Positions 5,238 through 43,217 of a stretch of DNA of 64,000 nucleotides are shown here, piece by piece. Origin of the DNA: a virus; the IMG/VR virus record IMGVR_UViG_3300012928_002096, positions 1,549 through 65,548 of that record; one strand, given 5' to 3'. Each line of letters begins with the position of its first letter. Positions within the stretch are counted from its first letter, which is position 1. Both the position numbers and the translations under genes were made by a program. Under the pieces are notes generated by a model that did no database searches, was not told the DNA's origin, and saw nothing but the letters and a program-made list of their open reading frames with translations.

Positions 5238-5264
5238 TAAATATATAAAACTATTGAGGATAAA

Positions 5265-5759: not shown

Positions 5760-5760
5760 T

Positions 5761-6357: not shown

Positions 6358-6386
6358 ATAAATACATTTGTATACAGGAGACTACA

Positions 6387-7037: not shown

Positions 7038-7056
7038 TATTTCTATTAAATAATAG

Positions 7057-8385: not shown

Positions 8386-8393
8386 ATTAAGGA

Positions 8394-29003: not shown

Positions 29004-29980
29004 ATATAATACCTCGCTTGTAACGGTTCTGCATATTGTGCCGCATTATCTGCAATACGCTGTAAATCCCACTTAGCACAAAACTTCATAAGTCTCATAC
29101 CTACTTGGCTAACGTTCTTACTGCTTGCTGATTGGATAGTGTTATTTATTTCTTGCTTTATGTTATCTGGTTGTGCAGTCAAATCACATAATGTAACATT
29201 TCTTGTGTAATCATCTAACACACGATGTTCTACACCTTCGTGATCAACCCAACGTTGCAACATCATATTGTTCCAATTGTAGCCTTTACTTTCTTTATCA
29301 GCAAATGCTTCTAGTAAGCCTACTTTGTTCTTTGTACCTTTTTTACGTACACCTGGATATGCACTAAACACGTTATCACTAGTGTCACCACGCATACACT
29401 TTTCAAACAACATAAATTGTGGTTCTGGAGCAGCCTTAGGCTCCTTAGTTTTCTTGTCTATTACAGATTTACCTTTGTCATCAAAGTAACCTTCGTGTGT
29501 AATTGTAACATTTTGTACACCGTTATATTGACGCACATTGGGTGCAATAAGTTGTGCAAAGTCACCATCTGTGCTAACAATCACGTGTTCATCATTTGGA
29601 TGTGCTTGCACCCAACCTGCTATAAGATCATCTGCTTCTAACACAGGATTATGTAAAACTGTGCAGTTTGTTTTGTCTGTAACAAACTCTTTGAACTCAT
29701 CAAATATTTCCCAAAAGATTTTATCTTCTTCTGCCTCACGTGGGCTCATAGCTTCACGATGTTCTTTACGGTTACGCTTGTAAGGCTCATAATAATCTTT
29801 ACGCCAACTACGTCCTTCTAAACAAAAAACAACGTGTGAACCGCTGAAGTCTTGCCACGCTTTCTTAATACTGTTAAGTGTAATGTGCATTGCCATACCT
29901 ACTTTAGTATCAATATCGCCACGTACTACGTGTCTAGCTCTAAAGAAAGTATTTGCTGTATCAATTAGTATGTAAGTCAT
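29000..29980 (-). CDS. rnh: T4-type RNase H / 5'-3' flap exonuclease
   Basis: ILIDTAN, EADD, VSTDGDFAQL, GDTSDNV..AYPG. Confidence 0.9.
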   Translation of the reverse strand: MTYILIDTANTFFRARHVVRGDIDTKVGMAMHITLNSIKKAWQDFSGSHVVFCLEGRSWRKDYYEPYKRNRKEHREAMSPREAEEDKIFWEIFDEFKEFVTDKTNCTVLHNPVLEADDLIAGWVQAHPNDEHVIVSTDGDFAQLIAPNVRQYNGVQNVTITHEGYFDDKGKSVIDKKTKEPKAAPEPQFMLFEKCMRGDTSDNVFSAYPGVRKKGTKNKVGLLEAFADKESKGYNWNNMMLQRWVDHEGVEHRVLDDYTRNVTLCDLTAQPDNIKQEINNTIQSASSKNVSQVGMRLMKFCAKWDLQRIADNAAQYAEPLQARYYI

Positions 29981-30365
29981 AAAACTCTTCTTCTACATAT
30001 CGTTTCAATTCGTGGTCACCAACATTGTCAGGTACTTCGTTTTTGTAAAACAATCTGTAGCTGTCACTGCCGTATTTCCCAATTCCATATAACATTGTAG
30101 CATCATTTCCGTCCCAAGTCAAGAACTCTTTACTCATTCTTTTCAAACGCTTATATCTTACGTTTACCATACCGAGACTTTCGATTATAGTTTTAATTGT
30201 TTTTTCGGGTGTGTTTAAGAAATGTACAGGAGTTGGCGCAGTTGCAAACAACGGAGGTAATACACGTTTTACTTGTTTTCTATTTGTACAATTTAAACAG
30301 ATAACACCTACCATATGTTGCCATACGTTTTCAACTTGCTGTTGAACCATTAGATCGTCACGCAT
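29961..30365 (-). CDS. MBD4-like HhH-GPD DNA glycosylase
   Basis: ICLNCT..KQ, HhH LYGIGKYGSDSYRLF, catalytic-type DHEL. Confidence 0.8.
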   Translation of the reverse strand: MRDDLMVQQQVENVWQHMVGVICLNCTNRKQVKRVLPPLFATAPTPVHFLNTPEKTIKTIIESLGMVNVRYKRLKRMSKEFLTWDGNDATMLYGIGKYGSDSYRLFYKNEVPDNVGDHELKRYVEEEFYDLHTN

Positions 30366-30790
30366 TACGAAACTTCACTTTTTCCTTGATCGATAGGTAC
30401 AACATTAATATAACCTGCGCCTCTATCTGTGTCTATTCCTTCTTCTACAAACATATTGTAAACAATATCTTTGAACCATCTATCAACAATTTGTTCTTCA
30501 GCATCGCCTTTTTCGCCATAGCCTGCGCCAATAAGTTGTTCAATAAAATATTTGTTCCAATCTAATTCAAAAAAACCATTTCTTACGTTATCTTGGTTAA
30601 CTTTGACATCAAGTACATTTACCCACGGTTCTTTCTTTTTTGTAGCATATGCTTTAGGATCACGAACTTTTAACTGTTCCATTTCTTTGGCTTCTAAAGC
30701 AGCCTTCTCTTCTGAAATACGCTGTTCTTCTTCTGCAATGCGTTTTTCTTCTGCTTCAATGCCAGTTACTTTTTTAAGCCATTGTTTCAT
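30365..30790 (-). CDS. Hypothetical phage protein
   Basis: 140 aa, FFELDWN...VDRWF. Confidence 0.7.
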   Translation of the reverse strand: MKQWLKKVTGIEAEEKRIAEEEQRISEEKAALEAKEMEQLKVRDPKAYATKKKEPWVNVLDVKVNQDNVRNGFFELDWNKYFIEQLIGAGYGEKGDAEEQIVDRWFKDIVYNMFVEEGIDTDRGAGYINVVPIDQGKSEVS

Positions 30791-31236: not shown

Positions 31237-32133
31237 TTAAGTTCCCCAGGCATTTCCGAATAAGCTGATGTGGAGTCTAGGCGAGAACCTCCACCCTCGT
31301 TCCATACAGAGGTCCGCCACCTCTTGTACGTTGAGAGTGTATTCTTCCGACCTACCCCCAAGCGGCATAAGATATACAGGAACGTTGACACCTGCTTCAC
31401 GATAGGCACTAACAGCTCTAGCGACTTCGTCAACATCGTCTTGATCAGCGACAACAAACTTGAGATACATATCGCTGCCGTTAACACGCCTATAGTCAGC
31501 AGCCACAGCAGGCTTAATAGCAGTTTCCCAAGGTTCTCCGCTAACGCTAAGTTTTGGGGAACAAGACCAAGTGACTTCAAATCTGTCTTGAGTGTTGAGG
31601 TAGTCATAGAAATCATCTTTAAGATGTTGTGTAGTATTTGTTTCAAATGTGACATTTTTCAAATCCCTCATCCGTGGATGTTCAAATAATTCTACGTACA
31701 GTCGTTGCCACGCCAACAACGGTTCGCCACCAGTCATAATCAAATGTACATCTTGGCCATTATCCATTGTCCATTTGCCTTCTGGTAATAAACTTAGTAA
31801 ATGTTCTACAACTTCATCTACATCTTTAAGCATATTGAAATGTTTAAATTCTGGATAGATACTTGCATATGTATCACAACCTGTGTGTACAATAGGCAGA
31901 TCATTAAATTCTTTTGTAGTTTCGTGAATGCCATCAGCAAGTAATTGCTTTACTTCTGCATTGTAACGTTCACCACGCTTGTGTTGTTCCCAACGATCGC
32001 CAACGCTTTTATCAACACCAAAATTCATACAGCGAAAGTTACAACCGAAGGTACGTAGGAATACACTAGGTACTCCTACAAACTTGCCTTCGCCTTGTAC
32101 ACTATAAAATGCTTCACTATAGCGTAACTTCAT
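31237..32133 (-). CDS. queE: 7-carboxy-7-deazaguanine synthase QueE (radical SAM)
   Basis: EAFYSVQGEG..GVPSVFLRTFGCNFRC...GCDT, MTGGEP, FETN, SCSPKL, FSPRLHISLFG. Confidence 0.93.
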   Translation of the reverse strand: MKLRYSEAFYSVQGEGKFVGVPSVFLRTFGCNFRCMNFGVDKSVGDRWEQHKRGERYNAEVKQLLADGIHETTKEFNDLPIVHTGCDTYASIYPEFKHFNMLKDVDEVVEHLLSLLPEGKWTMDNGQDVHLIMTGGEPLLAWQRLYVELFEHPRMRDLKNVTFETNTTQHLKDDFYDYLNTQDRFEVTWSCSPKLSVSGEPWETAIKPAVAADYRRVNGSDMYLKFVVADQDDVDEVARAVSAYREAGVNVPVYLMPLGGRSEEYTLNVQEVADLCMERGWRFSPRLHISLFGNAWGT

Positions 32134-32297
32134 TATAGTTCCTCCGCAATACCGAGGACTTCAGCAACAAGTAAACCTAAGGCTAACCAACCCCAACTAC
32201 CTGTTGCTAAAGCAACTACGCATCCTGCGATACGTACACCACTTTTTACTAAACTAATATAAAAGTGTTTTTTACTTACATCTACTGGTTCTGCCAT
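32133..32297 (-). CDS. Small membrane protein
   Basis: MAEPVDVSKKHFYISLVKSGVRIAGC...AEVLGIAEEL*, 54 aa, TAATG-coupled on both sides. Confidence 0.7.
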   Translation of the reverse strand: MAEPVDVSKKHFYISLVKSGVRIAGCVVALATGSWGWLALGLLVAEVLGIAEEL

Positions 32298-33004
32298 TAT
32301 GACCCCTGTGCAAATTGCTGTTGTAGTTTAACGTTATCGATAAACTCTTTTTTAGTTGCTGGATCATTTTTAAATGCACCACGTAACACTGTAGTTTGTG
32401 TTAAACTACTGTGTGCTTTGATACCTCTATTTTCACAACAACCGTGCGTGGCTTGTACATAAACACCAACATTTTCACTTCCTGTATGTTTCTGAATTTC
32501 ATCAGCAATCATTACATTTAGTTCTTCTTGTAGTGTTCCACGCATAGCACACCACTGTGCAATACGTGTGTATTTACTCAAACCTAGTAACTTAGGACCA
32601 GCAATAATACCAATGTATGCTACACCTTTAACAGTTTGGTGATGATGTGAACACAAACTTGTAAGTTCACTACGCACAACCAACATACCTTCATAACCTT
32701 CACCTTCATTTACATAATTAGGAAAAGCATTAGGTGCTGGCATTGGATTATATCGACCAGACATAATTTCGTTGACATACATTTTTGCCATACGTCTACC
32801 AGTGTCAATACTGTTAGGATCGTTCTCAGTATCGATAATCAATGTTTGTAAAACATCTTCAAACTTATAAGCAAGTTCGTTCTTGATCTCTTCAAGTTCC
32901 CACTCGCTTATGTGTTCACTAATATTATCATTTGCAAAAAAACGCACGTTATTTTTTTTAAGTCTTTCACGTACAACTTGACTGACTTTTACTTCTTCTG
33001 TCAT
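32297..33004 (-). CDS. folE: GTP cyclohydrolase I
   Basis: SLCSHH, GLSKYTR, LQEEL, ATHGCCENRG. Confidence 0.95.
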   Translation of the reverse strand: MTEEVKVSQVVRERLKKNNVRFFANDNISEHISEWELEEIKNELAYKFEDVLQTLIIDTENDPNSIDTGRRMAKMYVNEIMSGRYNPMPAPNAFPNYVNEGEGYEGMLVVRSELTSLCSHHHQTVKGVAYIGIIAGPKLLGLSKYTRIAQWCAMRGTLQEELNVMIADEIQKHTGSENVGVYVQATHGCCENRGIKAHSSLTQTTVLRGAFKNDPATKKEFIDNVKLQQQFAQGS

Positions 33005-33439: not shown

Positions 33440-33967
33440 TTAATCATATTCCCAAGGAAAAACAATCCAAGTATCTTTTTCGCTAGTATCTATTTCTTCC
33501 CATACATAGTCTACATTGCCAAAATTTGTGTGTGTTTTCTCGCACATTGTAGCAAAACGGACATTTTCGTGCCAAACATCTTCCCACCCTATGCTATCAG
33601 GTAAACAACCCGATTCCCAGTCTTGTTTGATCCAATCAAACGTAGCGCCTGTGTCGTTGATATCATCTACAACTAATATTTGTTTACGCATTTTTGGTTT
33701 ACATTTTCCATCGTGATAACCTAGTGCATCTTCAGCCATCCATAAATTACTTTCTGGCTGTTCTTTACTATCACGTAAACGCACATCTAGTGTGTAATGA
33801 TTACAGTCTAGTAGGTGGCTTAATATTACACTTAAAGGCAATCCGCCTCTATTAAGTCCTACAATGTAATTAGGACGAAAATTATTTTTGTACATTTCAA
33901 GTGCTAACTTATGAGCGCATTTTTGTACATCATCCCAAGAATAATATTTCCTGTCTATTTTTTCCAT
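33440..33967 (-). CDS. Purine phosphoribosyltransferase (Gpt/Hpt-like, type I PRTase)
   Basis: IVGLNRGG, ILVVDDINDTGAT, WIVFPWE. Confidence 0.88.
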   Translation of the reverse strand: MEKIDRKYYSWDDVQKCAHKLALEMYKNNFRPNYIVGLNRGGLPLSVILSHLLDCNHYTLDVRLRDSKEQPESNLWMAEDALGYHDGKCKPKMRKQILVVDDINDTGATFDWIKQDWESGCLPDSIGWEDVWHENVRFATMCEKTHTNFGNVDYVWEEIDTSEKDTWIVFPWEYD

Positions 33968-34544: not shown

Positions 34545-34819
34545 TATAGATACCCCATATTTTCCATATGTCCTCTAAGATTTTCAATTGCCTCTAATAC
34601 ACCTGGCCAATCTTCATTTTGAATCATTTCACGTGCATCTCTACAATCTTCAAGCAATTGGGGATTTTCAGGCCACTCTTGAATATTATCTAAAATATGT
34701 TTTGCTTCTTCTTCAAACCACATTATACCTTCCAAAAATTCACCATCGTCTAAATATTCGATGGCACGTAAAACCCAGTAATATAAATTATCAGTTCCTT
34801 TTAGTTCACTCGAGTGCAT
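34544..34819 (-). CDS. Hypothetical protein
   Basis: 91-aa coupled ORF. Confidence 0.65.
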   Translation of the reverse strand: MHSSELKGTDNLYYWVLRAIEYLDDGEFLEGIMWFEEEAKHILDNIQEWPENPQLLEDCRDAREMIQNEDWPGVLEAIENLRGHMENMGYL

Positions 34820-35681
34820 TTCTGCTCCTTTCTAATTTGTATTGATCAAGACACATATCCTCAATCGTTTTTTCTAGTGTTACAAGGTCACTTAAATTAT
34901 CAACAACACTTGTAACAGCATCACCTTCTCTTCTTGGTGCCTCTACAGTAATTATTGATTTACCTGTAACTTTCTCCATAGTATTGATAACTTCACGTAC
35001 ACTATATCCTACGTTAGAACCAAGACATTCATAGTCTGTATTAGCTGGTCCTCGTTCAACGGCATTAGCAATGGCACTAGCCAAATCAGCAATGTGAATA
35101 TAATCACGAATACAAGTACCATCCCTAGTATCATAGTCCACGCCAAAGATCTTAAGGTCGGGTAGTTTCTCAGCAGCCACCATAGCAGCAACACGAATAA
35201 GATGGGTAGGAACGCCCAATTGACGATTATGCCCGTCAGTACCAGATACGTTAAAAAATCTAAATATAGTGTATCCATCAGCTTTCTCCTTTATTACATC
35301 TTCTGCGGCTACTTTGCTACGTGCATATGGACTTGCCATTTCCCAAGCACTACTTGTACTAGCAAACAAAACGTGTGGGCAAGTTGTCTTATTTAGAAGA
35401 TTTAGTGTACCCATTACATTTACTCTATAGTATTCACTAGGCTCCTTCATACTATCTGGCACAACACTACGGCCTGCTAAATGCACAATAGCATCATAAA
35501 TGCCACCAACATATTGCCCAGTAATATCAACATTATGAAAATCATCACAGTATGCAGATACATCATTGTGTTCGCCGTGAATATTAATATCCCAACCAAC
35601 AACAAAATGTCCACGTTCTTTTAGTAGTTTACAAACGTGACTACCTATGTATCCTGTTGCACCTGTAACTAAAACTTTCAA
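34806..35681 (-). CDS. galE: UDP-glucose 4-epimerase-like NAD-dependent epimerase
   Basis: TGATGYIGSH, HLAG, ASTS, YARSK, FRFFNV, GTCIRDYIH. Confidence 0.88.
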   Translation of the reverse strand: MKVLVTGATGYIGSHVCKLLKERGHFVVGWDINIHGEHNDVSAYCDDFHNVDITGQYVGGIYDAIVHLAGRSVVPDSMKEPSEYYRVNVMGTLNLLNKTTCPHVLFASTSSAWEMASPYARSKVAAEDVIKEKADGYTIFRFFNVSGTDGHNRQLGVPTHLIRVAAMVAAEKLPDLKIFGVDYDTRDGTCIRDYIHIADLASAIANAVERGPANTDYECLGSNVGYSVREVINTMEKVTGKSIITVEAPRREGDAVTSVVDNLSDLVTLEKTIEDMCLDQYKLERSRNALE

Positions 35682-36841
35682 TACTTTGTCTCCGCTACGT
35701 GATCTCTATAACGATTGCTATCTCTACGCCACTGTTCACCGTTGCCTTGCATAATATCAATATAACGATCAATTGTTGCACTAGTCCAATCACTAATCTT
35801 ACCTAAGTCTTTGTGTGGAGAATCTAGCAATGGCTGTAGTTTGTTGACTGCATCTTCTGTACTCCAAGGAACATACATTCTTGTGTAATCGTTTGCAAAT
35901 ATTTCAGGAAAACTTCTATATGCAGGAAACAATACATTACAACCTAATGCATCTGCTTCACTTACTGTATTACTTGTCCAGTCTTGTAATGCACAGTTAA
36001 ATAAAACTTTACTATGATTTACAATATGATAGTAATCATTCTTTTTTAAGTTTTCATAAATTTTTAAGCAACCTGCTTTTTCAAGAGCTCTTGCTCTATC
36101 AATATACTTTATATTGTTACTTCTTAATGGACCACCTTGTAGAATAGCAAACTCAATATCTGCATCATTGAGTTGTTCAGCAATATCCATAAAAAAATCT
36201 GGCTGTTTTTCTTGATCAAAACGTGCCGCAAATACTACACGATTTTCACGTTCGTCCCAAGGCTTAATTTCGCCTACTCTAAGTTGCACTTCTGTTTTAT
36301 CAAACGCAAGTCCACTTATGTTGTAAATAGGTGCTTTCCAGTTTGCTATTTTCATATGTGCAACCATTTCTTCATTACTTGCTAATACGCCTGTAACAAA
36401 CTCATTGCACATTTCTTCATACAAACTCATCCACTTGCCCATACCCCAAACGTGTACAAAGTCATCTGGATCTACAGCCTGTGCTAAACAACGTATCCAA
36501 ACTTGCGGGCGTTGTTCTGCTGGAATCTGATCCATAATGTAAGGCAACGATTCCATACCAGGCTGAAACATATCTTCAAAGAATACAACATCTTCGCCTG
36601 TAACTTCACCGTTACGCATCATTTGCACTAAGTTCATCATTTGCGACATTGCAAAGTAAGAACGGCCGTGTGCATCTAACACCTGACCGACTTGAATTGC
36701 TTTTGTGTTATCAATAGTAGTACCAGGCACACTAACCCAGTCGATGTCACGTCTTAAAAACGCTCTTCGTGACCACTCTTCTAACTGTAATGTGTACCTG
36801 CCTTCATAAGGCTCTAAGCCCATATAAAACAGTTTTCTCAT
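35678..36841 (-). CDS. GT-B (GT4-like) glycosyltransferase
   Basis: VVFAARFDQEKQP, LFNCALQDWTSNTVSEADALGCNVLFP. Confidence 0.82.
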   Translation of the reverse strand: MRKLFYMGLEPYEGRYTLQLEEWSRRAFLRRDIDWVSVPGTTIDNTKAIQVGQVLDAHGRSYFAMSQMMNLVQMMRNGEVTGEDVVFFEDMFQPGMESLPYIMDQIPAEQRPQVWIRCLAQAVDPDDFVHVWGMGKWMSLYEEMCNEFVTGVLASNEEMVAHMKIANWKAPIYNISGLAFDKTEVQLRVGEIKPWDERENRVVFAARFDQEKQPDFFMDIAEQLNDADIEFAILQGGPLRSNNIKYIDRARALEKAGCLKIYENLKKNDYYHIVNHSKVLFNCALQDWTSNTVSEADALGCNVLFPAYRSFPEIFANDYTRMYVPWSTEDAVNKLQPLLDSPHKDLGKISDWTSATIDRYIDIMQGNGEQWRRDSNRYRDHVAETKY

Positions 36842-37029
36842 TAATTACGTCCTTTATTCCGATTCTTAGCTCGGATCCAGTTTTTATATTTGGTGAAGGC
36901 CTGCCAAACACGGGCATCTTTTTTGTAAAGATCTGCCTGGTTAAATGGATAACCTTCTGTACGACAAAAATCGTGCAGTTCGTCTAAGTCGTTAAAGATT
37001 TTATTAACGACAGGATTTTTGATAGTCAT
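36841..37029 (-). CDS. Small hypothetical protein
   Basis: 62 aa, AAGGA RBS. Confidence 0.7.
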   Translation of the reverse strand: MTIKNPVVNKIFNDLDELHDFCRTEGYPFNQADLYKKDARVWQAFTKYKNWIRAKNRNKGRN

Positions 37030-37033
37030 TTCC

Positions 37034-37507
37034 TTAATAATCCTTTTTTGCTTCTAAGTTAGGATAAATGATTGAACAGCCGTTTTCGCCATCTTCGGCG
37101 ACATCAATTACAACAAACCGGCCTGGATATTTGTTGTTAATCTGTGTATACAAGTCATCTGCTATCATTTCACAAGACTTGTGGTTGAGTTCGATAGTTT
37201 TATCATCATATAAACTTTCTAACCAACGCTTGAATTGAATAAATTCAATATCTCTATCATTGTGCGTAACTTCAATTTGCACTTTGAAATGAAAGATGTG
37301 TCTATGTGCTACACCTAAAAAACTTACATCGTCCCAGCCACCTGTTGCTAGTGCTGGATCGTCTTTTGCCGCAGGATATAAATGTATACCTTCTTTACGA
37401 AATGTAACCCATATACTACGTTTTGCAATTTCTAATGTTTTATTCAATTTTGCATTTTCCTCTCTAAAGCGCCTTAACATATATTCATAATAACGTTCTT
37501 GGCTCAT
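37034..37507 (-). CDS. QueD/PTPS-paralog T-fold protein, DpdL-like (putative CDG decarboxylase)
   Basis: EGIH, LGVAHRHIF (LxxxHRHxF in place of QueD CxxxHGH), SCEMIA, VAEDGENG. Confidence 0.7.
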   Translation of the reverse strand: MSQERYYEYMLRRFREENAKLNKTLEIAKRSIWVTFRKEGIHLYPAAKDDPALATGGWDDVSFLGVAHRHIFHFKVQIEVTHNDRDIEFIQFKRWLESLYDDKTIELNHKSCEMIADDLYTQINNKYPGRFVVIDVAEDGENGCSIIYPNLEAKKDY

Positions 37508-37511
37508 ATTG

Positions 37512-38015
37512 TCAACCTATGATTTCGTCTGTGGTGTATTTAGACCAATCAGTAAAAACAGCCTTCTCTTTTAAATCGTGCATCCTATGCACCCATACAC
37601 CCGGATTAGTTGCATCAAAGTCTTTGTCATCTATTTTAAGACACGCATTATATCCTAGTTGACTTATGTATGGCAGTTTTGCACTAATCATTGGAATAAA
37701 ACGATTGTATTCAGTGTAACCGGATTCTAATACCCATTCTACATCTTTAATATCAAAATCTAATGTTATCCAAAAACCTTCTTTCAACAATGGAAAGATC
37801 ATATTATCATATGCTTCATTTGGTTCAAAGCTCATATTGGCACCAATATAAATATGATCAACACCTGCTTTGTTTGCGTGTTCAACAATATCTTCAAAGT
37901 TTTGTACACCTACAACGAACAGCGTTTTCTTACCAAACTTTGGCGTGTGTTCTACTTCTGTGCCAATAAAAAAGTTTACACTTTCATTTACACCGCTATC
38001 ATAATCTCTTTTCAT
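37512..38015 (-). CDS. Unknown protein inside the deazaguanine locus
   Basis: Likely start ATG 38015 (ATGA overlap); GTEVEHTP, HIYIGANMSF, NPGVWVH. Confidence 0.75.
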   Translation of the reverse strand: MKRDYDSGVNESVNFFIGTEVEHTPKFGKKTLFVVGVQNFEDIVEHANKAGVDHIYIGANMSFEPNEAYDNMIFPLLKEGFWITLDFDIKDVEWVLESGYTEYNRFIPMISAKLPYISQLGYNACLKIDDKDFDATNPGVWVHRMHDLKEKAVFTDWSKYTTDEIIG

Positions 38016-38185
38016 TGCTGTTTCACCTGATATATTTCGTTCCACGTATTCCAACGTTTTTTAATGTATTCATTTAACTGTTCTGGCGGATAATTTTTTT
38101 CTTTCATATTTGCAATAATCTTATCCAAATCTTCTAAAGCCATTTCTAATGCAAGTAACCTAAGTTCTTTTTCATTGGTATCCAT
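38012..38185 (-). CDS. Small hypothetical protein (below ORF-track cutoff)
   Basis: MDTNEKELRLLALEMALEDL...YQVKQQ*, 57 aa, overlaps both neighbours. Confidence 0.55.
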   Translation of the reverse strand: MDTNEKELRLLALEMALEDLDKIIANMKEKNYPPEQLNEYIKKRWNTWNEIYQVKQQ

Positions 38186-38384
38186 TTACATATATGCCTT
38201 TGTCTATTAGTTGTCTTTCTATTCTATAAATTTCATCTTTTAACCAAAGTTTTTCTGTTTTTAACCGTCTTAACTCTTCGGTAATATGATGAGTATATAA
38301 CTTTTGTATTTCTGTGTCAAGTGCTCTGTGTTTTTTTCTTAATTCTTCAAGGTGAGATATTAATTTATCGTTGTCGTCGCCCAT
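38172..38384 (-). CDS. DUF465/YdcH-like coiled-coil protein
   Basis: LEELRKKHRALDTEI...LKTEKLWLKDEI. Confidence 0.7.
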   Translation of the reverse strand: MGDDNDKLISHLEELRKKHRALDTEIQKLYTHHITEELRRLKTEKLWLKDEIYRIERQLIDKGIYVNGYQ

Positions 38385-39842
38385 TTAGATCTCCTCAAAT
38401 AGTTCTCCGAACTTTGTGCTTGCGTTTACAGTCTTTTTTCCTACATTAAGTCTTGTGCCTATAACTTGCATCCAAAACTTAGAATATTTTGTTATTAAAT
38501 CTAAACTTTTTTGTCTATCTTTTAAACTAAAGATCTCATCAACAACTTGTTTAAACTCTATACGTTCAAAACGTTCGTCAATCAACATATAAGGATATTC
38601 TCCTGTGTCATAACGTTCGTTTGCTCGTTGTGTGCTTTCAATGTGCATCCATACATTATGACCCATTTGTAATGCATAACTAAATGAGTCCCAACTTGTT
38701 TTGCCTTCTTTACCAATTTTATTCAAATCGCCTGGTTTGTAAATACAAATGTCTTTTATTTGACATTCTTTACTAATAGGAGAGTCTTCAAATGCTTTCA
38801 AAAGACCATCTGTTTCAAGTGCATCTTTAAATGTTCTTGTGTCTGTTGCATACTTCTTATCATCAGCGCCTGGCGACATCATATAACTCCACTTGCCACG
38901 ATCTTCAATACGTATTGTGTGATAAACTTGTCCATTTGCTGTTGCTAAGAAAGGCGATGCACAGTCATATGTAATCATAAAGTTTTTATTATGATACTTA
39001 CGCACTGCACGTTGGATATCTGTAAGCAATACAGCCCATTCTAACTTACTTGTGCCTAAGAAGTGCATAACATCGTGAACACCTTCTTCTAGTAACCCAT
39101 CGTGTATTTGATGCACAAGTCTACGCAATATCAAATCAACATCGCACATATTTTGTCCACCCATTGCCCAGCCATTAAAGTGTGTATCTGGAAACTGTGC
39201 TGGATCGCAATAGTGCTTGAACTCTTCATACCAACTATCTGCATCTGCGTGGTTACTACCTTGTAATACGTTCAGCACTTTGAAGTTGCCACGTCTATTT
39301 GCCATATAGTATTTTGCGTTTATGTGTGTTGCATCTACAGCATCTTGATAACTGTGAATATTTGCTGCCTTTGCTGCCTTAGGATCTTGGAAAGTCCAAG
39401 TTGGAATATCCAACATCATTCCATAGTCCATATATTCTTCCATCCAGTTAACAACAAGTTCACGTTTCTTTTGTGCTTTTGGACATTTAGGATTAGTCCA
39501 GTCACCTTCCCAAAGTCCTTTTGCAATTTGGAAACCACCAGAGTCACCAAGCAACCAACTATTTTCTCTATCGCGGTTGCGTAACATATCTTCTTTTTCT
39601 ACGTGTTTGTTTATATCTAAGTCTGCGTGTCCTGCAGAATACAAAGCCCACTTATAATGAAATGCTCCTTTATCAGGATTCAAAAAGTTTAGACTTTCTA
39701 CTTCATTAAGTCCAGATGGCACACGATTGTAATCAACGTATTCACCGAAACGTTGTTTACCTACAAATGTAGCATAAAAGCCACTTATACTTGGCAGAAA
39801 CACAGCATAATCATTCTGTGTTTGTGTTAGATCCTTTTTCAC
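38385..39842 (-). CDS. dpdA: TGT-fold transglycosylase, DpdA-like (7-deazaguanine insertion into DNA)
   Basis: LGDSGGFQ, MMLDIP, NVLQG, GWAMGG, HFLGTS, YDCAS; folE/queE context. Confidence 0.7.
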   Translation of the reverse strand: MKKDLTQTQNDYAVFLPSISGFYATFVGKQRFGEYVDYNRVPSGLNEVESLNFLNPDKGAFHYKWALYSAGHADLDINKHVEKEDMLRNRDRENSWLLGDSGGFQIAKGLWEGDWTNPKCPKAQKKRELVVNWMEEYMDYGMMLDIPTWTFQDPKAAKAANIHSYQDAVDATHINAKYYMANRRGNFKVLNVLQGSNHADADSWYEEFKHYCDPAQFPDTHFNGWAMGGQNMCDVDLILRRLVHQIHDGLLEEGVHDVMHFLGTSKLEWAVLLTDIQRAVRKYHNKNFMITYDCASPFLATANGQVYHTIRIEDRGKWSYMMSPGADDKKYATDTRTFKDALETDGLLKAFEDSPISKECQIKDICIYKPGDLNKIGKEGKTSWDSFSYALQMGHNVWMHIESTQRANERYDTGEYPYMLIDERFERIEFKQVVDEIFSLKDRQKSLDLITKYSKFWMQVIGTRLNVGKKTVNASTKFGELFEEI

Positions 39843-40230
39843 GTATTGCTCTCTTTTCTAAACTTAACTTATCTTTTTGACTCATTACATATGCGGCGCC
39901 TGCAAGAATTAAAATTGCGCCAGCTTCGGCAACTAGCACCCAAGGATTTGCGTCTTTACTGTGTAGCACAATTAATCTACACAATGCTGTCATTGCAATT
40001 ATAATAGGCAATGTAACAGGTATTCTGTTGCTAATAAAGTATGCACCAACCATACCTACAATCTCAGTATATATAAAAAGCAGAAATAAATCTGCAAGTT
40101 CTATCTTAAGATCCATAATCATAGAATATACATCTAAACCTGCCGCAACAACAGTAAGTATGCCTATTATAGAAAGCATACCTTTTTCTGTCATTACTGT
40201 AGTCCAGTGTAATCTATTTTTTTCTTGCAT
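39811..40230 (-). CDS. psiE: PsiE-family membrane protein
   Basis: ADLFLLFIYTEIVGM...IPVTLPIIIAMTALCRLIVL. Confidence 0.8.
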   Translation of the reverse strand: MQEKNRLHWTTVMTEKGMLSIIGILTVVAAGLDVYSMIMDLKIELADLFLLFIYTEIVGMVGAYFISNRIPVTLPIIIAMTALCRLIVLHSKDANPWVLVAEAGAILILAGAAYVMSQKDKLSLEKRAIREKGSNTNTE

Positions 40231-40958
40231 TATTTCTGTTGCGCTGGTAGAATGTAATCATATTTTGCCATACCACTGTCTACGCTAATTTTCATAGCAC
40301 CTTGATCAGTGATACTCATTGTTTTGTCACCATCTAAGTTTAGTATAGCAAGTGTTTGTGCAACTGGCCACGCCCAAGTATGTGTAAGTTTGCCTTCAAT
40401 ACCGTGTTCAAATGTAAATGAACCTGCGTGTGTTGCTTCGTCACCAAAGTAAAAGTTCAAGTTGTTATCTTCAGTCTTTACTTGGAACACTGTTTCTTCA
40501 CTGTGTGCGCCTGACATCAATTTCATACGTGCAATTGCTGCCATATTAGGCTGAATCTCAACATCATATGTGCTGACTTTGAACTTTACACTTTTTAGTT
40601 TTTCTTCAATAATTGCTTTGTTCATAAAACGATAATCATTTTCAAAATCACCCGATGCATTTTCAAAGTGTATGTGTGTTGGCATAACTTCGCCGTTGCG
40701 TTCTGCTTGTACAACTTCAATCTTTGCATTGTCTTTGTACTCTGGATTTTTCAAGTGATAATCTAATTTGCCAAGATCTGGCATACCAAATGTTCCGTTA
40801 AATTCACCAACTGGCGAATGTGTTGTTGCTGTCATAATCACACTACGATCATCAGCCATACTATCAATTTGAGTATCTTCTTCTGCTGTAACTTTCAGTG
40901 TAGTAATAAAACCTAGTCTGTGTGTATGACTCACAATGTCTTGTAGAATATCTTGCAT
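40230..40958 (-). CDS. Probable DNA polymerase sliding clamp (gp45-like)
   Basis: 242 aa, two-repeat alpha/beta pattern, ends YDYILPA; near DNA polymerase. Confidence 0.55.
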   Translation of the reverse strand: MQDILQDIVSHTHRLGFITTLKVTAEEDTQIDSMADDRSVIMTATTHSPVGEFNGTFGMPDLGKLDYHLKNPEYKDNAKIEVVQAERNGEVMPTHIHFENASGDFENDYRFMNKAIIEEKLKSVKFKVSTYDVEIQPNMAAIARMKLMSGAHSEETVFQVKTEDNNLNFYFGDEATHAGSFTFEHGIEGKLTHTWAWPVAQTLAILNLDGDKTMSITDQGAMKISVDSGMAKYDYILPAQQK

Positions 40959-40979
40959 ATTGTTCTCCGTTGTTGATTA

Positions 40980-41008
40980 ATTATACTAACTTTTGCTTTA
41001 TTTGTCAA
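40980..41008 (-). promoter_or_regulatory. Perfect-consensus sigma70 promoter
   Basis: TTGACA-AATAAAGCAAAAGTTAG-TATAAT. Confidence 0.85.
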
Positions 41009-41759
41009 GTGTTTGTTTCAATTTTGTGTTATAATAAACTGCTGCCGACAATGTATTTAGATTAATATTTTTTTCTGATGCCATTTTTAATAGAGCCTTT
41101 GTGTCTTTTGGAAAACACATTCCACCCCATCCACGTATACCTTCTTCTGGCCATACATAACTATGACTTGAACCTATACGTTTATCATCTGTAATACCTG
41201 CTTGCACTTCTTCATAGTCTAAATTATATGCTTTACAAAAATCAAAAATTTCATTGAAGAAACTTACTTTAGTTGCTAAGAAAGCATTTCTAAAATATTT
41301 TATAGCAATAGCTTCTTCTGGTGTAACAATGTTTATACGGCATTGAGGCCAATTAAAACTATATTGGTCACGCCAGTAATCTGTATCACCACTTAAAATA
41401 ATACAGTCTAATTGTTTAATATCATTCATATAGTTTTTTGCTCTAAGAAACTCTGGAGAAAAACATAATCTATGATTAGGAAAATTATTTTTTATATCTT
41501 GCCAGCCTTGTAAACTTATTGTGCTTTTGATTAATATAGGTGTTGTTTCATTACAAAGTTCTATAGTGCTGTACACAGCACTTACATCACAACTACCATC
41601 TTCTGCTGATGGAGTAGGTACACATATTACCACAGCACTTGTATTTGAAAAATCAGCATATTTGTCTTTAGGTGGATCGTGTATTTCAATTTCTCTTCTA
41701 TGGTCTTTGAATAGTAATTCGTATGCCTGTCCAACAAATCCGTATCCTGCTATAATCAT
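40998..41759 (-). CDS. ugd: UDP-glucose/GDP-mannose 6-dehydrogenase-like (N-terminal and central domains only)
   Basis: IAGYGFVG, ICVPTP, IKSTI, FSPEFLR, KYFRNAFLATKV, GWGGMCFPKD. Confidence 0.85.
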   Translation of the reverse strand: MIIAGYGFVGQAYELLFKDHRREIEIHDPPKDKYADFSNTSAVVICVPTPSAEDGSCDVSAVYSTIELCNETTPILIKSTISLQGWQDIKNNFPNHRLCFSPEFLRAKNYMNDIKQLDCIILSGDTDYWRDQYSFNWPQCRINIVTPEEAIAIKYFRNAFLATKVSFFNEIFDFCKAYNLDYEEVQAGITDDKRIGSSHSYVWPEEGIRGWGGMCFPKDTKALLKMASEKNINLNTLSAAVYYNTKLKQTLDK

Positions 41760-42469
41760 TGTGCTAACTTCGCTTCCTGAAAGTATCCAAGTCTTTCCCA
41801 AGTATCACGATAATCTTTAACATTGAAACAACGTTTTGTATCTAGCTTGACTGCTAATGGCCAATCATTACCACCTTCAACAATTTTGTCACCAAAGAAA
41901 TAAATTTTATCATTCTTGTTAAAATCTTCTAAGATTTGACTTTTATCTCCACCTTTACGATATATGTCTATTCCTGTTTCGCCACCTATAGTTGCAGTTA
42001 TATCAGGAAATTCTAAATTAATTTGGAAAGCAATACTTTCACGTTCTTTGTTTTGCAAATCGTGTTGTATATAAAGTTTACGTTCACCTAGTGTGCAATT
42101 ACGTCCTACTATACTAAAATTAATTGTACCTGTTCTTTCTTCTATATGATTACCTGTACGTAATGGAAAATTACTTGCTTGTAACCAACCGTGCATTAAA
42201 TTATACAATTCTTTAGGAGCATCAAATGTTTTACTTGCTACATTTTGTCCTTTTTTGTAGACATCATTGCCACTGCAATTATAACAAGACTCAACATTTT
42301 CACAAATATCTTCACCAAGCTGTTCGACTGTCTTATTATAATCGCTACCAGTTACTAACCATACTTTATTATGTGTAATAAATGATTTAAAAAATGTTTT
42401 AAACTCTGGATGAATAGTTTGTCTACTTGGTGTAAGTGTGCCGTCAACATCGAATATAAATTTATTCAT
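41756..42469 (-). CDS. Phosphomannomutase (eukaryotic-type, HAD-IIB)
   Basis: FDVDGTLT, VTGSD, IEERTGTINFSIVGR, FFGDK..EGGND. Confidence 0.88.
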   Translation of the reverse strand: MNKFIFDVDGTLTPSRQTIHPEFKTFFKSFITHNKVWLVTGSDYNKTVEQLGEDICENVESCYNCSGNDVYKKGQNVASKTFDAPKELYNLMHGWLQASNFPLRTGNHIEERTGTINFSIVGRNCTLGERKLYIQHDLQNKERESIAFQINLEFPDITATIGGETGIDIYRKGGDKSQILEDFNKNDKIYFFGDKIVEGGNDWPLAVKLDTKRCFNVKDYRDTWERLGYFQEAKLAQ

Positions 42470-42876
42470 TATACTTCACATACTCTCTTTCTTAAATCAC
42501 TAGTGCTAAATCTATGATCACGTTTATTAAAATACAAATCTATTTCACGCTTACGACAAATGTCTTTACCTGTAAAATCTTTGTCTCTGTATTCTTCTCC
42601 AAGTATTCTAACATCTATATGATACATTGTCAATATATCTTCTAGGTCTTTTTCAGTGCCATAAGGAATAATTTCATCAACATACTTTACACCTTTTAAT
42701 TGTGTATAGCGTTCGACAATAGTTTGCACAGGAGCATTTTTTTCTGATCGATCTACACTAGGATCCATTTGTAATGCACATATTAAATAATCGCATTGTT
42801 CTTTTGCTTCACGTAACATTTGTACGTGTCCTGCGTGTAATAAATCAAATGTTGAACAAGTAAATCCTACTTTCAT
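42469..42876 (-). CDS. TagD-like cytidylyltransferase
   Basis: FDLLHAGH (HIGH-type), ERYTQL...VDEII, RFSTS. Confidence 0.88.
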   Translation of the reverse strand: MKVGFTCSTFDLLHAGHVQMLREAKEQCDYLICALQMDPSVDRSEKNAPVQTIVERYTQLKGVKYVDEIIPYGTEKDLEDILTMYHIDVRILGEEYRDKDFTGKDICRKREIDLYFNKRDHRFSTSDLRKRVCEV

Positions 42877-43217
42877 TAATGATTCCGCCTACCATCAAAT
42901 GCACAAACAAAGTAAAGTTCTTGGTCTTTACCTTGATACATATCAGATTCTACTCTATGATGTATACCATCTTTAATCAATACAACATCACCAGGACCAA
43001 CTGCCATAGGCTCATCATTTAGATACATTGTGCCTTTACCTCTAATAAAGAAATAAATTTCTTCTTGTCCTTTGTGTATATGTCCTGACGTAGATTTGCC
43101 AGGCTTCATTGTTGTACTACTTAATACTAAATTTTGTAACAGTGTGTTATCTTTAACAATGTATCGTTCGTCTTGTTTAGCGATAACTCCACCAATATCT
43201 TGTATATCTACTTTCAA
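42876..43217 (-). CDS. Cupin-domain protein (mannose-6-phosphate isomerase-like)
   Basis: GHIHKGQEEIYFFIRG...GDVVLI..GIHHRV. Confidence 0.85.
   Translation of the reverse strand: MKVDIQDIGGVIAKQDERYIVKDNTLLQNLVLSSTTMKPGKSTSGHIHKGQEEIYFFIRGKGTMYLNDEPMAVGPGDVVLIKDGIHHRVESDMYQGKDQELYFVCAFDGRRNH

What the first reader, a model, noticed from the sequence alone, without database searches (positions are those of the whole stretch)
34806..43217. Glycosyltransferase and a nucleotide-sugar toolkit interleaved with the deazaguanine genes: candidate glycosylated-deazapurine DNA hypermodification
Seen: the order on the - strand is cupin, cytidylyltransferase, PMM, UGDH-like, clamp, psiE, dpdA-like, (small ORFs), unknown, DpdL-like, small ORF, GT-B, galE, then PRTase, folE, queE. 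The GT and galE sit physically inside the dpd locus and are translationally coupled to each other. Known: T-even phages glycosylate modified cytosines, and I know of no sugar-bearing 7-deazaguanine in DNA. Inference: a new sugar-decorated base, or a GT that glycosylates a second base or virion proteins using UDP-Gal, UDP-GlcA or GDP-Man.
Basis: partly seen in the sequence, partly recalled or inferred. Interest (0 to 1): 0.8.

Follow-up and report, generated by a model that had tools for sequence, protein, structure and literature searches.

The report
Glycosyltransferase wedded to phage deazaguanine genes
A sugar-transferring enzyme is a near-constant neighbour of the genes that phages use to swap guanine in their DNA for 7-deazaguanine, in this abundant uncultured marine phage and in several cultured phages, which suggests an undescribed sugar-bearing deazaguanine base that could be looked for directly by mass spectrometry.

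Summary
On the minus strand lie cupin, cytidylyltransferase-like, PMM, a truncated UGDH-like gene, a clamp-like gene, PsiE, a remote DpdA-like transglycosylase (GDSGGFQ motif), small ORFs, an unknown 180-aa protein, DpdL (exact LxxxHRHxF signature), a 62-aa ORF, a GT-B/GT4 glycosyltransferase, a start/stop-overlapping GalE-like epimerase, then PRTase, FolE and QueE.

DpdL lies just upstream of the GT in 75 of 76 evaluable viral contigs. The two genes sit 0-3 kb apart in seven cultured phage lineages (BUCT-ZZ01, ACP17, X1/BUDD, BCSR5, PA5oct group, Phosso). DpdL or que genes also flank the GT in 8 of 10 deep-branching metagenomic lineages (28-39% identity). The GT is the best-conserved gene of the module (median 74% where PolB is 60%) and keeps its donor-binding residues. 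Two unrelated GalE lineages sit directly after it.

Five DpdL phages lack the GT, including phiST, whose DNA carries plain dDG. That fits an optional tailoring step.

My best reading (about 0.5): a hexose, probably galactose, is added to a DpdL-branch deazaguanine. The acceptor atom and the timing are unknown. The cupin/CTase/PMM/UGDH set is lineage-specific. I found no published report of this link.

The parts
35678..36841 (-). GT-B / GT4-type glycosyltransferase (387 aa), founding member here of a DpdL-linked clade
   Evidence: Pfam Glycos_transf_1 scores 31 bits against a cut-off of 26.4. The AF2 model has pLDDT 94.8. VIA-align Z is 22-27 over 300-343 residues to GT4 enzymes. Family invariants are R15, D90, R207, E211, K212, P214 and E295, with D/E287 forming a D/E-x7-E motif. 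At least 599 IMG/VR contigs carry it, and 855 representatives at 50% identity match it.
34806..35681 (-). GalE-like UDP-hexose 4-epimerase (291 aa), start overlapping the GT stop
   Evidence: TIGR01179 galE scores 205 bits, below the cut-off of 262. GxxGxxG and S...YxxxK are present. The TTG start and TGA stop overlap. A GalE follows the GT in 73 of 80 viral loci, with a median gap of 15 nt. The alternative GalE lineage in relatives passes the cut-off at 265-315 bits.
36841..37029 (-). 62-aa basic ORF between DpdL and the GT, function unknown
   Evidence: Its stop overlaps the GT ATG as TAATG. pI is 9.8. It is conserved in 53 of 82 loci.
37034..37507 (-). DpdL (QueD-like T-fold paralogue, predicted 7-carboxy-7-deazaguanine decarboxylase)
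   Evidence: The motif LGVAHRHIF matches LxxxHRHxF as defined in PMC10516641. It is 36% identical to phiST CGPG_00067 and 50-61% identical to the ACP17, PA5oct and Phosso homologues.
37512..38054 (-). Conserved unknown protein (180 aa), a module member
   Evidence: It is present in 68 of 82 loci and in ACP17. It is also found beside the GT in two deep lineages, L100 and L101. The AF2 model has pLDDT 81 and no significant fold match.
38385..39842 (-). Remote DpdA-like DNA guanine transglycosylase (485 aa)
   Evidence: It has no Pfam, NCBIfam or PDB sequence hit. The family is invariant for D100-S-G-G-F-Q105. hhalign against the DpdA3-type alignment, which includes phiST CGPG_00065, gives 93.8% probability and E 1.8e-7 over 202 columns. 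Homologues occur in PA5oct (34%) and Phosso, with weak hits to annotated 'TGT domain' proteins.
33440..33967 (-). Xanthine/guanine phosphoribosyltransferase-like enzyme
   Evidence: Pfam Pribosyltran. NCBIfam xanthine PRTase, E 3e-11, below cut-off. It is present in 53 of 82 loci. BUCT-ZZ01 carries an annotated XGPRT inside its own cluster.
32297..33004 (-). GTP cyclohydrolase I (FolE)
   Evidence: Pfam E 2.3e-36. NCBIfam FolE 138 bits.
31237..32133 (-). QueE-like radical SAM enzyme (7-carboxy-7-deazaguanine synthase)
   Evidence: NCBIfam QueE models hit below their cut-offs. It is 40% identical to the annotated QueE of BUCT-ZZ01.
30365..30790 (-). Conserved unknown (141 aa) downstream of queE
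   Evidence: Homologues lie just after queE in PA5oct and Phosso. It is present in 27 of 82 loci.
42876..43217 (-). Small cupin; lineage-specific sugar-metabolism candidate
   Evidence: Pfam Cupin_2, E 1.8e-12. It is found in only 8 of 82 loci.
42469..42876 (-). Cytidylyl/adenylyl-transferase-like enzyme (sugar-1-P or glycerol-3-P nucleotidyltransferase type)
   Evidence: Pfam CTP_transf_like. It hits rfaE domain II and TagD models below their cut-offs. It is present in 45 of 82 loci, and in some of them it lies directly after galE.
41756..42469 (-). Eukaryotic-type phosphomannomutase (HAD-IIB)
   Evidence: Pfam PMM, E 1.3e-31. It is present in 35 of 82 loci.
40998..41801 (-). Short nucleotide-sugar dehydrogenase-like protein lacking the C-terminal UDP-binding domain
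   Evidence: Pfam finds the central domain and part of the N-terminal domain only. GYGFVG and GGMCFPKD are kept. Relatives are 246-271 aa.
40230..40958 (-). Clamp-like replication protein (sits between the sugar genes and the modification genes)
   Evidence: phrog_12062. The Phosso homologue is annotated as sliding clamp.
39811..40230 (-). PsiE-family membrane protein (probably not part of the module)
   Evidence: Pfam PsiE, E 1.6e-19. It is present in only 2 of 82 loci.

Best explanation
The 387-aa protein is an active retaining-type GT-B/GT4 glycosyltransferase. It is a dedicated component of the 'DpdL branch' of phage 7-deazaguanine DNA modification.

The proposed pathway runs as follows. 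FolE, a QueD not found in this fragment, and QueE make 7-carboxy-7-deazaguanine from GTP. DpdL, a QueD paralogue, remodels it; the published prediction is decarboxylation to 7-deazaguanine. A divergent DpdA-type transglycosylase exchanges genomic guanine for the product. The XGPRT-like enzyme probably salvages the released guanine.

The GT then uses a UDP-hexose, most likely UDP-galactose supplied by the start/stop-overlapping GalE. It attaches a sugar to the deazaguanine derivative, either on the free base before insertion or on the base in DNA. Virion DNA would therefore carry a hexosylated deazaguanine rather than plain dDG.

Shown here: the gene identities, the GT fold and donor-binding motifs, and the near-obligate GT-DpdL (and GalE) linkage.

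Inferred: that the acceptor is the deazaguanine, which sugar is used, which atom it is attached to, and whether it is added before or after insertion.
For: (1) Linkage in close relatives. DpdL lies upstream of the GT in 75 of 76 viral contigs with usable flank, with a median gap of 267 nt.

(2) Linkage at depth. GT homologues of 20-26% identity lie 0-3 kb from DpdL in ACP17, X1/BUDD, BCSR5, the PA5oct group and Phosso; the BUCT-ZZ01 homologue is 71% identical. Of 10 further metagenomic lineages at 28-39% identity, 8 have DpdL or que genes adjacent; the other 2 are contigs under 3 kb.

(3) Specificity. With the window GT as tblastn query, every hit among 50,697 phage records is in a DpdL-carrying record. 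DpdL itself is in only 29 records.

(4) The GT tracks DpdL, not the DpdA type. It occurs with two very different DpdA families, alignments A2 and A3.

(5) Constraint. The GT is the best-conserved gene of the module, at median 74% identity against PolB 60%, DpdL 64% and the DpdA-like gene 52%.

(6) The catalytic apparatus is kept: an R-x3-E-K diphosphate motif and D/E-x7-E. It has the full GT4 fold, Z 22-27.

(7) Two GalE lineages that share only 30-36% identity both sit directly after the GT.

(8) Five DpdL phages lack the GT genome-wide, including phiST, whose DNA carries plain dDG. That is the pattern expected of an optional tailoring step.

(9) Cui et al. could not obtain dDG from ACP17 dpdL plus dpdA in E. 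coli and suggested that other enzymes were missing. PA5oct DNA has a chemically unidentified modified G.

(10) Precedent: queuosine, a 7-deazaguanine, is mannosylated and galactosylated in tRNA by QTMAN and QTGAL.
Against: No chemical data exist for any GT-carrying phage.

7-Deazaguanine has no hydroxyl to glycosylate, and DpdL's activity is itself only predicted. An O-glycoside therefore needs either a different DpdL product or an unusual linkage (N-, C- or ester).

The nearest structures are GT4 enzymes with small soluble acceptors: BshA, MshA, SenB, sucrose-phosphate synthase and a pterin glucosyltransferase. T4 alpha- and beta-glucosyltransferases are not among the top 50. The GT is acidic, with pI about 5.

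One contig (L061) keeps GT, GalE, FolE, QueE and the DpdA-like gene but has no DpdL.

A sister GT4 clade in the PhiXhv-12/Ep032 phages sits with GlmS and a deacetylase, with no que genes nearby.

Gene linkage inside a replication module could partly reflect shared timing of expression.
Confidence: 0.5

Rival explanations
1. The GT is a biosynthetic helper whose sugar does not end up in DNA. It might glycosylate a pathway intermediate, such as a pterin or CDG, transiently for activation, solubility or channelling. Or it might be needed for DpdL or DpdA to work. Either way the final base would be plain dDG or another unglycosylated deazaguanine.
For: The closest structural relatives act on small soluble acceptors. 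The GT tracks DpdL rather than the DpdA type. dDG could not be reconstituted from ACP17 dpdL plus dpdA alone.
Against: phiST makes dDG without any GT homologue in its genome. I know of no precedent for a transient glycosyl intermediate in 7-deazapurine synthesis (own knowledge). Keeping a dedicated GalE for a catalytic by-path would be costly.
Confidence: 0.2
2. The GT glycosylates something unrelated to deazaguanine: another DNA base, a virion or replication protein, or a host molecule. On this view it sits beside DpdL only because both are early or replication-module genes that are inherited together.
For: Phage genomes carry many GT4 genes of unrelated function. The upstream sugar genes lie among replication genes. 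A sister clade in PhiXhv-12 lies in a sugar-amine context without que genes.
Against: The adjacency persists down to 20-30% identity, across T4-like phages, jumbo phages and a family A polymerase phage, while the surrounding genes differ. No hydroxymethylase or thymidylate-synthase-like gene lies near the GT in this window. With the window GT as query, the tblastn hits in cultured phages are all in DpdL-carrying genomes.
Confidence: 0.12
3. The FolE, PTPS-like (DpdL), SDR and GT genes form a pterin-glycoside pathway, as in cyanobacterial tetrahydrobiopterin glucoside synthesis. It would be an auxiliary metabolic function rather than a DNA modification.
For: The Synechococcus UDP-glucose:tetrahydrobiopterin glucosyltransferase is among the structural matches, at Z 23. 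FolE, a PTPS-family protein and an SDR are adjacent.
Against: That match is no better than dozens of other GT4 enzymes. The SDR is GalE by the equivalog model in relatives, not a sepiapterin reductase. QueE and a DpdA-like transglycosylase are constant partners, and this pathway leaves them unexplained. DpdL lacks the catalytic Cys of PTPS/QueD.
Confidence: 0.05
4. The GT-like protein has lost transferase activity and serves as a structural or DNA-binding partner of the transglycosylase.
For: The sequence match to Pfam is weak. The long DpdA forms co-occur with the GT, whereas the short DpdA3 of phiST and MA9V-3 does not.
Against: The donor-binding residues are invariant across 44 diverse members. 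GalE is coupled to the GT in two independent lineages. The GT co-occurs with two unrelated DpdA types.
Confidence: 0.05

Closest known systems
Phage DpdL/DpdA3 7-deazaguanine pathway (Cellulophaga phage phiST; Cui et al. 2023, PMC10516641)
   Same: Both have FolE, QueE and a QueD paralogue with LxxxHRHxF. Both have a highly divergent TGT-like transglycosylase and no QueC. The genes lie next to the DNA polymerase.
   Different: phiST has a short DpdA3 (259 aa) and no GT, GalE, 180-aa protein or PRTase. Its DNA carries plain dDG. The window and its cultured relatives add a GT4 enzyme that the paper did not assign to the pathway.
T4 alpha- and beta-glucosyltransferases and the 5hmC/5-hydroxycytosine DNA glycosyltransferases of other phages
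   Same: These are phage-encoded Leloir glycosyltransferases, some with the GT-B fold, that decorate a modified base to evade host nucleases.
   Different: They act on hydroxyl groups of modified pyrimidines and sit beside hydroxymethylase, TET or thymidylate-synthase-like genes. They are not the closest structures to this GT. I found no purine-type base with a sugar in DNA in the literature searched.
QTMAN (GTDC1) and QTGAL (B3GNTL1), which glycosylate queuosine in tRNA
   Same: A sugar (mannose or galactose) is added to a 7-deazaguanine derivative already placed in a nucleic acid by a TGT-family transglycosylase. That QTMAN belongs to GT4 is from my own knowledge and was not tested here.
   Different: The substrate is eukaryotic tRNA, and the acceptor is the cyclopentenediol hydroxyl of queuosine, which this pathway cannot make. 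No specific sequence or structural affinity was detected.
GT4 enzymes of small soluble acceptors (BshA, MshA, SenB, sucrose-phosphate synthase, pterin glucosyltransferase BGluT)
   Same: Best structural matches, Z 23-27 over more than 300 residues. They share the retaining GT4 architecture and donor-binding motifs.
   Different: Identity is only 8-15%. The phage clade has its own conserved N-terminal acceptor-domain motif (E-P-x-E-x-R-Y-T plus conserved Asp and aromatic residues).

Membership tests
GT-B fold, CAZy GT4-like retaining glycosyltransferases | Two Rossmann-like domains (GT-B) with close structural similarity to solved GT4 enzymes | tested here: met
   The AF2 model has pLDDT 94.8. 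VIA-align Z is 22-27 with 300-343 aligned residues to BshA, MshA, PglA, PimA and others.
GT-B fold, CAZy GT4-like retaining glycosyltransferases | C-terminal donor-binding motifs: E-x7-E and a basic R/K pair for the diphosphate | tested here: met
   R207, E211, K212 and E295 are invariant. Position 287 is D or E, seven residues before E295. Both hold in the 9- and 44-member alignments.
GT-B fold, CAZy GT4-like retaining glycosyltransferases | Pfam Glycos_transf_1 above the gathering score | tested here: met
   31.0 bits against a cut-off of 26.4. The margin is small.
DpdL (predicted CDG decarboxylase) | Signature LxxxHRHxF replacing the QueD motif CxxxHGH | tested here: met
   L64-G-V-A-H68-R-H70-I-F72, aligned with phiST CGPG_00067 and set against true QueDs.
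DpdL (predicted CDG decarboxylase) | Sequence homology to the founding member, phiST CGPG_00067 | tested here: met
   tblastn E 1e-10 at 33% identity. The alignment gives 36% identity.
DpdL (predicted CDG decarboxylase) | Context: FolE and QueE present, a DpdA present, QueC absent | tested here: met
   Caveat: the record is a 19% fragment, and QueD was not found in it.
DpdL (predicted CDG decarboxylase) | Decarboxylation of 7-carboxy-7-deazaguanine | not testable with these tools
   The activity is unproven even for the founding member.
DpdA / TGT-family DNA guanine transglycosylase | The D-S-G-G-F/L-Q active-site motif of TGT enzymes | tested here: met
   D100 to Q105 is invariant in 12 family members. 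That this is the TGT catalytic motif is from my own knowledge.
DpdA / TGT-family DNA guanine transglycosylase | Detectable homology to an accepted DpdA subfamily | tested here: met
   hhalign gives 93.8% probability and E 1.8e-7 over 202 columns against an alignment that includes phiST DpdA3. A weak reciprocal HMM hit was also seen.
DpdA / TGT-family DNA guanine transglycosylase | Match to Pfam TGT (PF01702) or to solved TGT sequences | tested here: not met
   No hit was found. The same model also misses phage X1, whose protein is annotated as queuine tRNA-ribosyltransferase, so the test is insensitive for these divergent proteins.
DpdA / TGT-family DNA guanine transglycosylase | TIM-barrel fold and zinc site | not tested
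GalE (UDP-glucose 4-epimerase) | NCBIfam equivalog TIGR01179 above its cut-off | tested here: not met
   The window protein scores 205 bits against a cut-off of 262 and is short at 291 aa. The GalE that occupies the same position in more distant relatives scores 265-315 bits.
GalE (UDP-glucose 4-epimerase) | SDR Rossmann GxxGxxG and catalytic S...YxxxK | tested here: met
   GATGYIG and SPYARSK are present in the translation.
T4-type DNA glucosyltransferases (AGT/BGT) | Specific structural or sequence relationship, and a 5-hydroxymethylpyrimidine pathway in the genome | tested here: not met
   They are not among the top 50 PDB matches. Viral 'DNA alpha-GT' models match no better than generic GT-B proteins, at TM about 0.5. 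No hydroxymethylase was found in the window.

The most novel reading that the evidence does not exclude
Genomic guanine in this abundant marine jumbo-phage lineage, and in cultured phages such as PA5oct, ACP17, X1, BCSR5, Phosso and BUCT-ZZ01, is replaced by a hexosylated (probably galactosylated) 7-deazaguanine derivative. That would be the first sugar-bearing purine-type base known in any DNA. It would be made by a dedicated GT4 clade working with DpdL, and might involve an unusual glycosidic linkage or a DpdL product other than plain 7-deazaguanine.
Probability: 0.45. Interest if true: 0.9.

Novelty: new variant of a known kind. Interest (0 to 1): 0.78.

Why it matters
Every DNA sugar modification I found in the literature sits on a pyrimidine. 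Every known DNA deazaguanine is sugar-free.

A glycosylated deazaguanine would be a new class of DNA base. That would bear on restriction and CRISPR evasion, and on the recognition of modified DNA by type IV and END-type nucleases. It would also matter for sequencing of environmental phage DNA and for enzymatic tools.

The GT family is very abundant in marine metagenomes: at least 7,993 clusters at 90% identity and at least 599 IMG/VR contigs.

It may also explain two loose ends. The first is why the DpdL pathway of ACP17 could not be reconstituted. The second is the identity of the unidentified modified G of the therapeutic-candidate jumbo phage PA5oct.

Several carriers are cultured, so the question can be answered directly.

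Tried and rejected
- **Megablast of the region against 50,697 phage records.** No match.
- **Pfam TGT, PTPS and QueC searches of the whole 67-kb record.** No match. The TGT model is evidently too insensitive for these proteins.
- **PDB sequence searches.** I searched with the 485-aa protein, with its family profile, and with the 180-aa family profile. Nothing significant came back.
- **Fold of the 180-aa protein.** Foldseek found nothing at E < 0.04. VIA-align gave Z <= 6.9, with STAS domains and QueE-like partial barrels in the noise range. I do not name a fold.
- **Bacterial genome scans.** An alignment query was too diverse for pattern design. A single distant member found nothing. Occurrence in cellular genomes is therefore untested.
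- **A special relationship to QTMAN, T4 AGT/BGT or the pterin glucosyltransferase.** I looked for one in the PDB, BFVD and Swiss-Prot fold searches. None stands out from generic GT4.
- **Promoter and terminator scan.** The counts are close to the shuffled expectation, so I did not use them to define operons.
- **The upstream cupin/CTase/PMM/UGDH-like genes as an NDP-mannose or NDP-mannuronate route.** This is plausible on paper. I did not adopt it, because the set is absent from about half of the close relatives and from all distant ones.

Full report
**What the window is.** It is part of a 67-kb IMG/VR viral record that CheckV rates 19% complete. GC content is about 35%. From about 18.7 kb onward the genes are on the minus strand. 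The family B polymerase (43500-46163) is closest to those of the jumbo phages Sinorhizobium phage Phosso (50%) and Agrobacterium phage Atu_ph07 (48%). The source is therefore probably an uncultured marine jumbo myovirus. No nucleotide-level relative exists among 50,697 GenBank phages.

**Checking the observation.**
- cupin (42876-43217)
- cytidylyltransferase-like (42469-42876; it hits RfaE domain II and TagD models below their cut-offs)
- eukaryotic-type PMM (41756-42469)
- UGDH-like (40998-41801)
- clamp-like (40230-40958)
- PsiE (39811-40230)
- a 485-aa protein (38385-39842)
- two small ORFs
- a 180-aa unknown (37512-38054)
- a 157-aa protein (37034-37507)
- a 62-aa ORF
- a Glycos_transf_1 protein (35678-36841)
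- a GalE-like SDR (34806-35681)
- PRTase (33440-33967), FolE (32297-33004) and QueE-like (31237-32133)

The GT stop and the galE start overlap. The 62-aa ORF stop overlaps the GT start.

First, the UGDH-like protein is a conserved short form of 246-271 aa in relatives. It keeps the Rossmann glycines and the catalytic-cysteine motif but lacks the C-terminal UDP-binding domain. Second, neither QueD nor QueC is detectable in the record.

**The deazaguanine genes.** The 157-aa protein carries L-G-V-A-H-R-H-I-F. This is exactly the LxxxHRHxF signature by which Cui et al. (NAR 2023, PMC10516641) defined DpdL, the predicted 7-carboxy-7-deazaguanine decarboxylase. It aligns at 36% identity with the founding member from Cellulophaga phage phiST and is clearly distinct from true QueDs.

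The 485-aa protein has no Pfam, NCBIfam or PDB sequence match. Its family is nonetheless invariant for G-D-S-G-G-F-Q. A profile-profile comparison against an alignment of DpdA3-type proteins (phiST CGPG_00065, ACP17, X1, BCSR5, BUCT-ZZ01) gives 93.8% probability and E 1.8e-7 over 202 columns. 'dpdA-like' is therefore justified as remote homology. Fold and zinc site were not tested.

**The glycosyltransferase itself.** An AlphaFold model built on 44 diverse homologues is confident, with pLDDT 94.8 and pTM 0.92. It matches solved GT4 enzymes over nearly its full length, at Z 22-27. The matches include sucrose-phosphate synthase, BshA, MshA, SenB, PglA, PimA, TreT and the Synechococcus pterin glucosyltransferase, and none stands out. 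T4 alpha- and beta-glucosyltransferases are not in the top 50. In the viral structure library only the ACP17 homologue and one unnamed protein stand out.

Across the family the diphosphate-binding R-x3-E-K and the D/E-x7-E motif are invariant. The N-terminal (acceptor) domain has its own conserved signature: E-P-x-E-x-R-Y-T plus conserved Asp and aromatic residues. This looks like an active Leloir transferase with a clade-specific acceptor site.

**The key test: does the GT occur without the dpd genes?** It almost never does.

1. *Close relatives.* A scan of IMG/VR returned at least 599 contigs. The 80 best (72-99% identity) share the core order PolB, clamp-like, DpdA-like, 180-aa, DpdL, GT, GalE, FolE, PRTase, sometimes QueD, then QueE. 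DpdL is present in 75 of the 76 loci that have upstream flank, with a median gap of 267 nt. GalE follows the GT in 73 of 80, with a median gap of 15 nt.

2. *Cultured phages.* With the window GT as query, tblastn hits lie only in BUCT-ZZ01 (71%), ACP17, X1 and BUDD. A family profile and queries from other members add Phosso (annotated 'glycosyltransferase'), the eleven PA5oct-group records and BCSR5. In every case the gene lies 0-3 kb from DpdL, inside a cluster with FolE, QueE and a DpdA-type gene. DpdL itself occurs in only 29 of 50,697 records.

3. *Deep lineages.* An exhaustive search of 1.84 billion representatives gave 855 family members. I fetched contigs for ten lineages at 28-39% identity. 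Eight have DpdL or que genes beside the GT. One of these is a phage with a family A polymerase. The other two are contigs under 3 kb.

4. *The converse does not hold.* Five DpdL phages have no GT homologue anywhere in their genomes: phiST, RHph_I1_18, Ahp1, Bakedbeans and D479. phiST is the phage in which plain dDG fully replaces G.

5. *The GT follows DpdL, not the transglycosylase type.* It occurs with the 485-aa type in the window, PA5oct, Phosso and three metagenomic lineages. It occurs with the DpdA3-long type in ACP17, X1, BCSR5 and BUCT-ZZ01.

6. *Conservation.* Among loci whose polymerase is 66% identical or less, the GT is the most conserved gene. Its median identity is 74%, against FolE 66, DpdL 64, PolB 60 and the DpdA-like gene 52.

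**Exceptions.**
- One contig (L061) keeps the DpdA-like gene, GT, GalE, FolE and QueE. It replaces DpdL and the 180-aa gene with two unknown ORFs and adds a nucleobase permease.
- A sister GT4 clade in the Xanthomonas/Erwinia jumbo phages (PhiXhv-12, Ep032) matches only from residue 83 onward. It lies with GlmS and an LmbE-type deacetylase, with no que genes nearby. Those phages do encode a DpdA-like protein elsewhere.

**The sugar genes.** GalE is the persistent partner in the marine lineage. It comes in two forms that share only 30-36% identity. The second form passes the GalE equivalog cut-off. The window's own copy falls short of the cut-off but has GxxGxxG and YxxxK. This points to a 4-epimerised UDP-hexose, most simply UDP-galactose, as the donor.

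The cupin, CTase, PMM and UGDH-like genes are present in 8 to 45 of the 82 loci, change position, and are absent from all distant relatives. They could form an NDP-mannose or NDP-mannuronate route, but I treat them as lineage-specific accessories.

**Mechanism.**
- *Shown:* the enzyme families, the linkage and the conservation.
- *Established elsewhere:* FolE, QueD and QueE give CDG, and DpdA proteins exchange guanine in DNA for a deazaguanine.
- *Predicted in the literature:* DpdL decarboxylates CDG.
- *My inference:* the GT adds a hexose to the DpdL-branch base. The PRTase recycles the guanine that the transglycosylase releases, feeding it back towards GTP.

Whether the sugar is added to the free base or to DNA is open. 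Small-acceptor structural relatives and independence from the DpdA type favour the free base. Phage precedent favours DNA.

The main chemical difficulty is that 7-deazaguanine offers no hydroxyl. Either the linkage is unusual, or the DpdL product in these phages is not plain DG.

**Literature.** Cui et al. examined the genes around DpdL in phiST. They reported failure to obtain dDG from ACP17 or phiST dpdL plus dpdA, and suggested that other enzymes might be missing. They did not mention the ACP17 GT. PA5oct DNA resists G-containing restriction sites, and its base is chemically unidentified. Searches combining deazaguanine with glycosyltransferase or glycosylation terms found no report of a sugar-bearing deazaguanine in DNA. 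A survey of phage DNA glycosyltransferases concerns cytosine derivatives only. The nearest precedent is glycosylated queuosine in tRNA. The main 2024 review of the field was not available to me, so I cannot exclude a brief mention there.

**Verdict.** The glycosylated-deazaguanine reading is the best available explanation, but it is unproven (about 0.5). It is a new variant of a known kind of system. It is abundant in nature and can be tested immediately in cultured phages.

Noticed in passing
window 235-9530 (+), 10140-10883 (+), 15316-16152 (+), 17400-18299 (+): The plus-strand arm holds five separate radical SAM proteins, one of them with a SPASM domain. It also holds a dihydroorotate-dehydrogenase-like protein and two TauD-family dioxygenases. 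This is an unusual enzyme-rich block for a phage.
   Followed up: no
window 40998-41801 (-): The nucleotide-sugar dehydrogenase homologue is conserved as a form of about 250 aa in relatives (246-271 aa). It lacks the whole C-terminal UDP-binding domain but keeps GYGFVG and the GGMCFPKD catalytic-cysteine motif. The likely true start is the internal Met before MIIAGYG.
   Followed up: partly
window 37512-38054 (-): The 180-aa protein is a module member: it is in 68 of 82 loci, in ACP17 and in two deep lineages. Invariant residues include E33, E35, P38, N73, D99, K140, D143 and W154. The model is confident but has no significant structural match. The weak QueE-like partial-barrel resemblance (Z about 6) lies within noise.
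   Followed up: partly
window 30365-30790 (-); L084:11973-12584; L085:15544-16296: A 141-aa unknown protein just downstream of queE has homologues in the same position in PA5oct and Phosso. It is a further candidate member of the module.
   Followed up: no
window 29961-30365 (-): This is a truncated HhH-GPD / endonuclease III-like protein (134 aa) at the edge of the module, present in only 6 of 82 loci. It is of interest because host END nucleases sense hypermodified DNA through an inactivated EndoIII domain.
   Followed up: no
L061:6581-14220: One related contig keeps the DpdA-like gene, GT, GalE, FolE and QueE. It replaces DpdL and the 180-aa gene with two unknown ORFs (362 and 195 aa). It also carries a xanthine/uracil-family nucleobase permease next to FolE.
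   Followed up: partly
L108:6749-7852 and L109:5578-7284 (Xanthomonas phage PhiXhv-12; also Ep032, Ep026): A sister GT4 clade sits with GlmS and an LmbE/BshB-type deacetylase. The same genomes encode a 568-aa DpdA-like protein near thymidylate synthase, with no que genes or DpdL detected. This may be a different base-exchange-plus-sugar system.
   Followed up: partly
L086, L087, L089, L090 (phages RHph_I1_18, Ahp1, Bakedbeans, D479): These DpdL- and FolE-carrying phages have no GT and no detectable DpdA of either divergent type. D479 has a dNMP kinase beside DpdL. In Bakedbeans and MA9V-3 the DpdL domain is the C-terminal part of a longer ORF (383 and 294 aa). This hints at a third, possibly pre-replicative, architecture.
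   Followed up: partly
L001 (Synechococcus phage BUCT-ZZ01): The GT is 71% identical to the window's copy, while the neighbouring QueE, FolE and DpdL are only 34-40% identical and the DpdA is of the other type. This implies either lateral exchange of the GT or exceptional constraint on it.
   Followed up: partly
window 41008-40980 (-): A perfect 12-of-12 sigma-70 consensus (TTGACA, 17 nt, TATAAT) lies in the short gap upstream of the clamp-like gene. It separates the sugar genes from the modification genes. Overall promoter-like counts are near the shuffled expectation.
   Followed up: no
window 18739-20673 (-), 55546-57792 (-): There is a subtilase fused to a plastocyanin/azurin-like copper-binding domain, and a full-length ClpB-type double-AAA chaperone, both encoded by the phage.
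   Followed up: no
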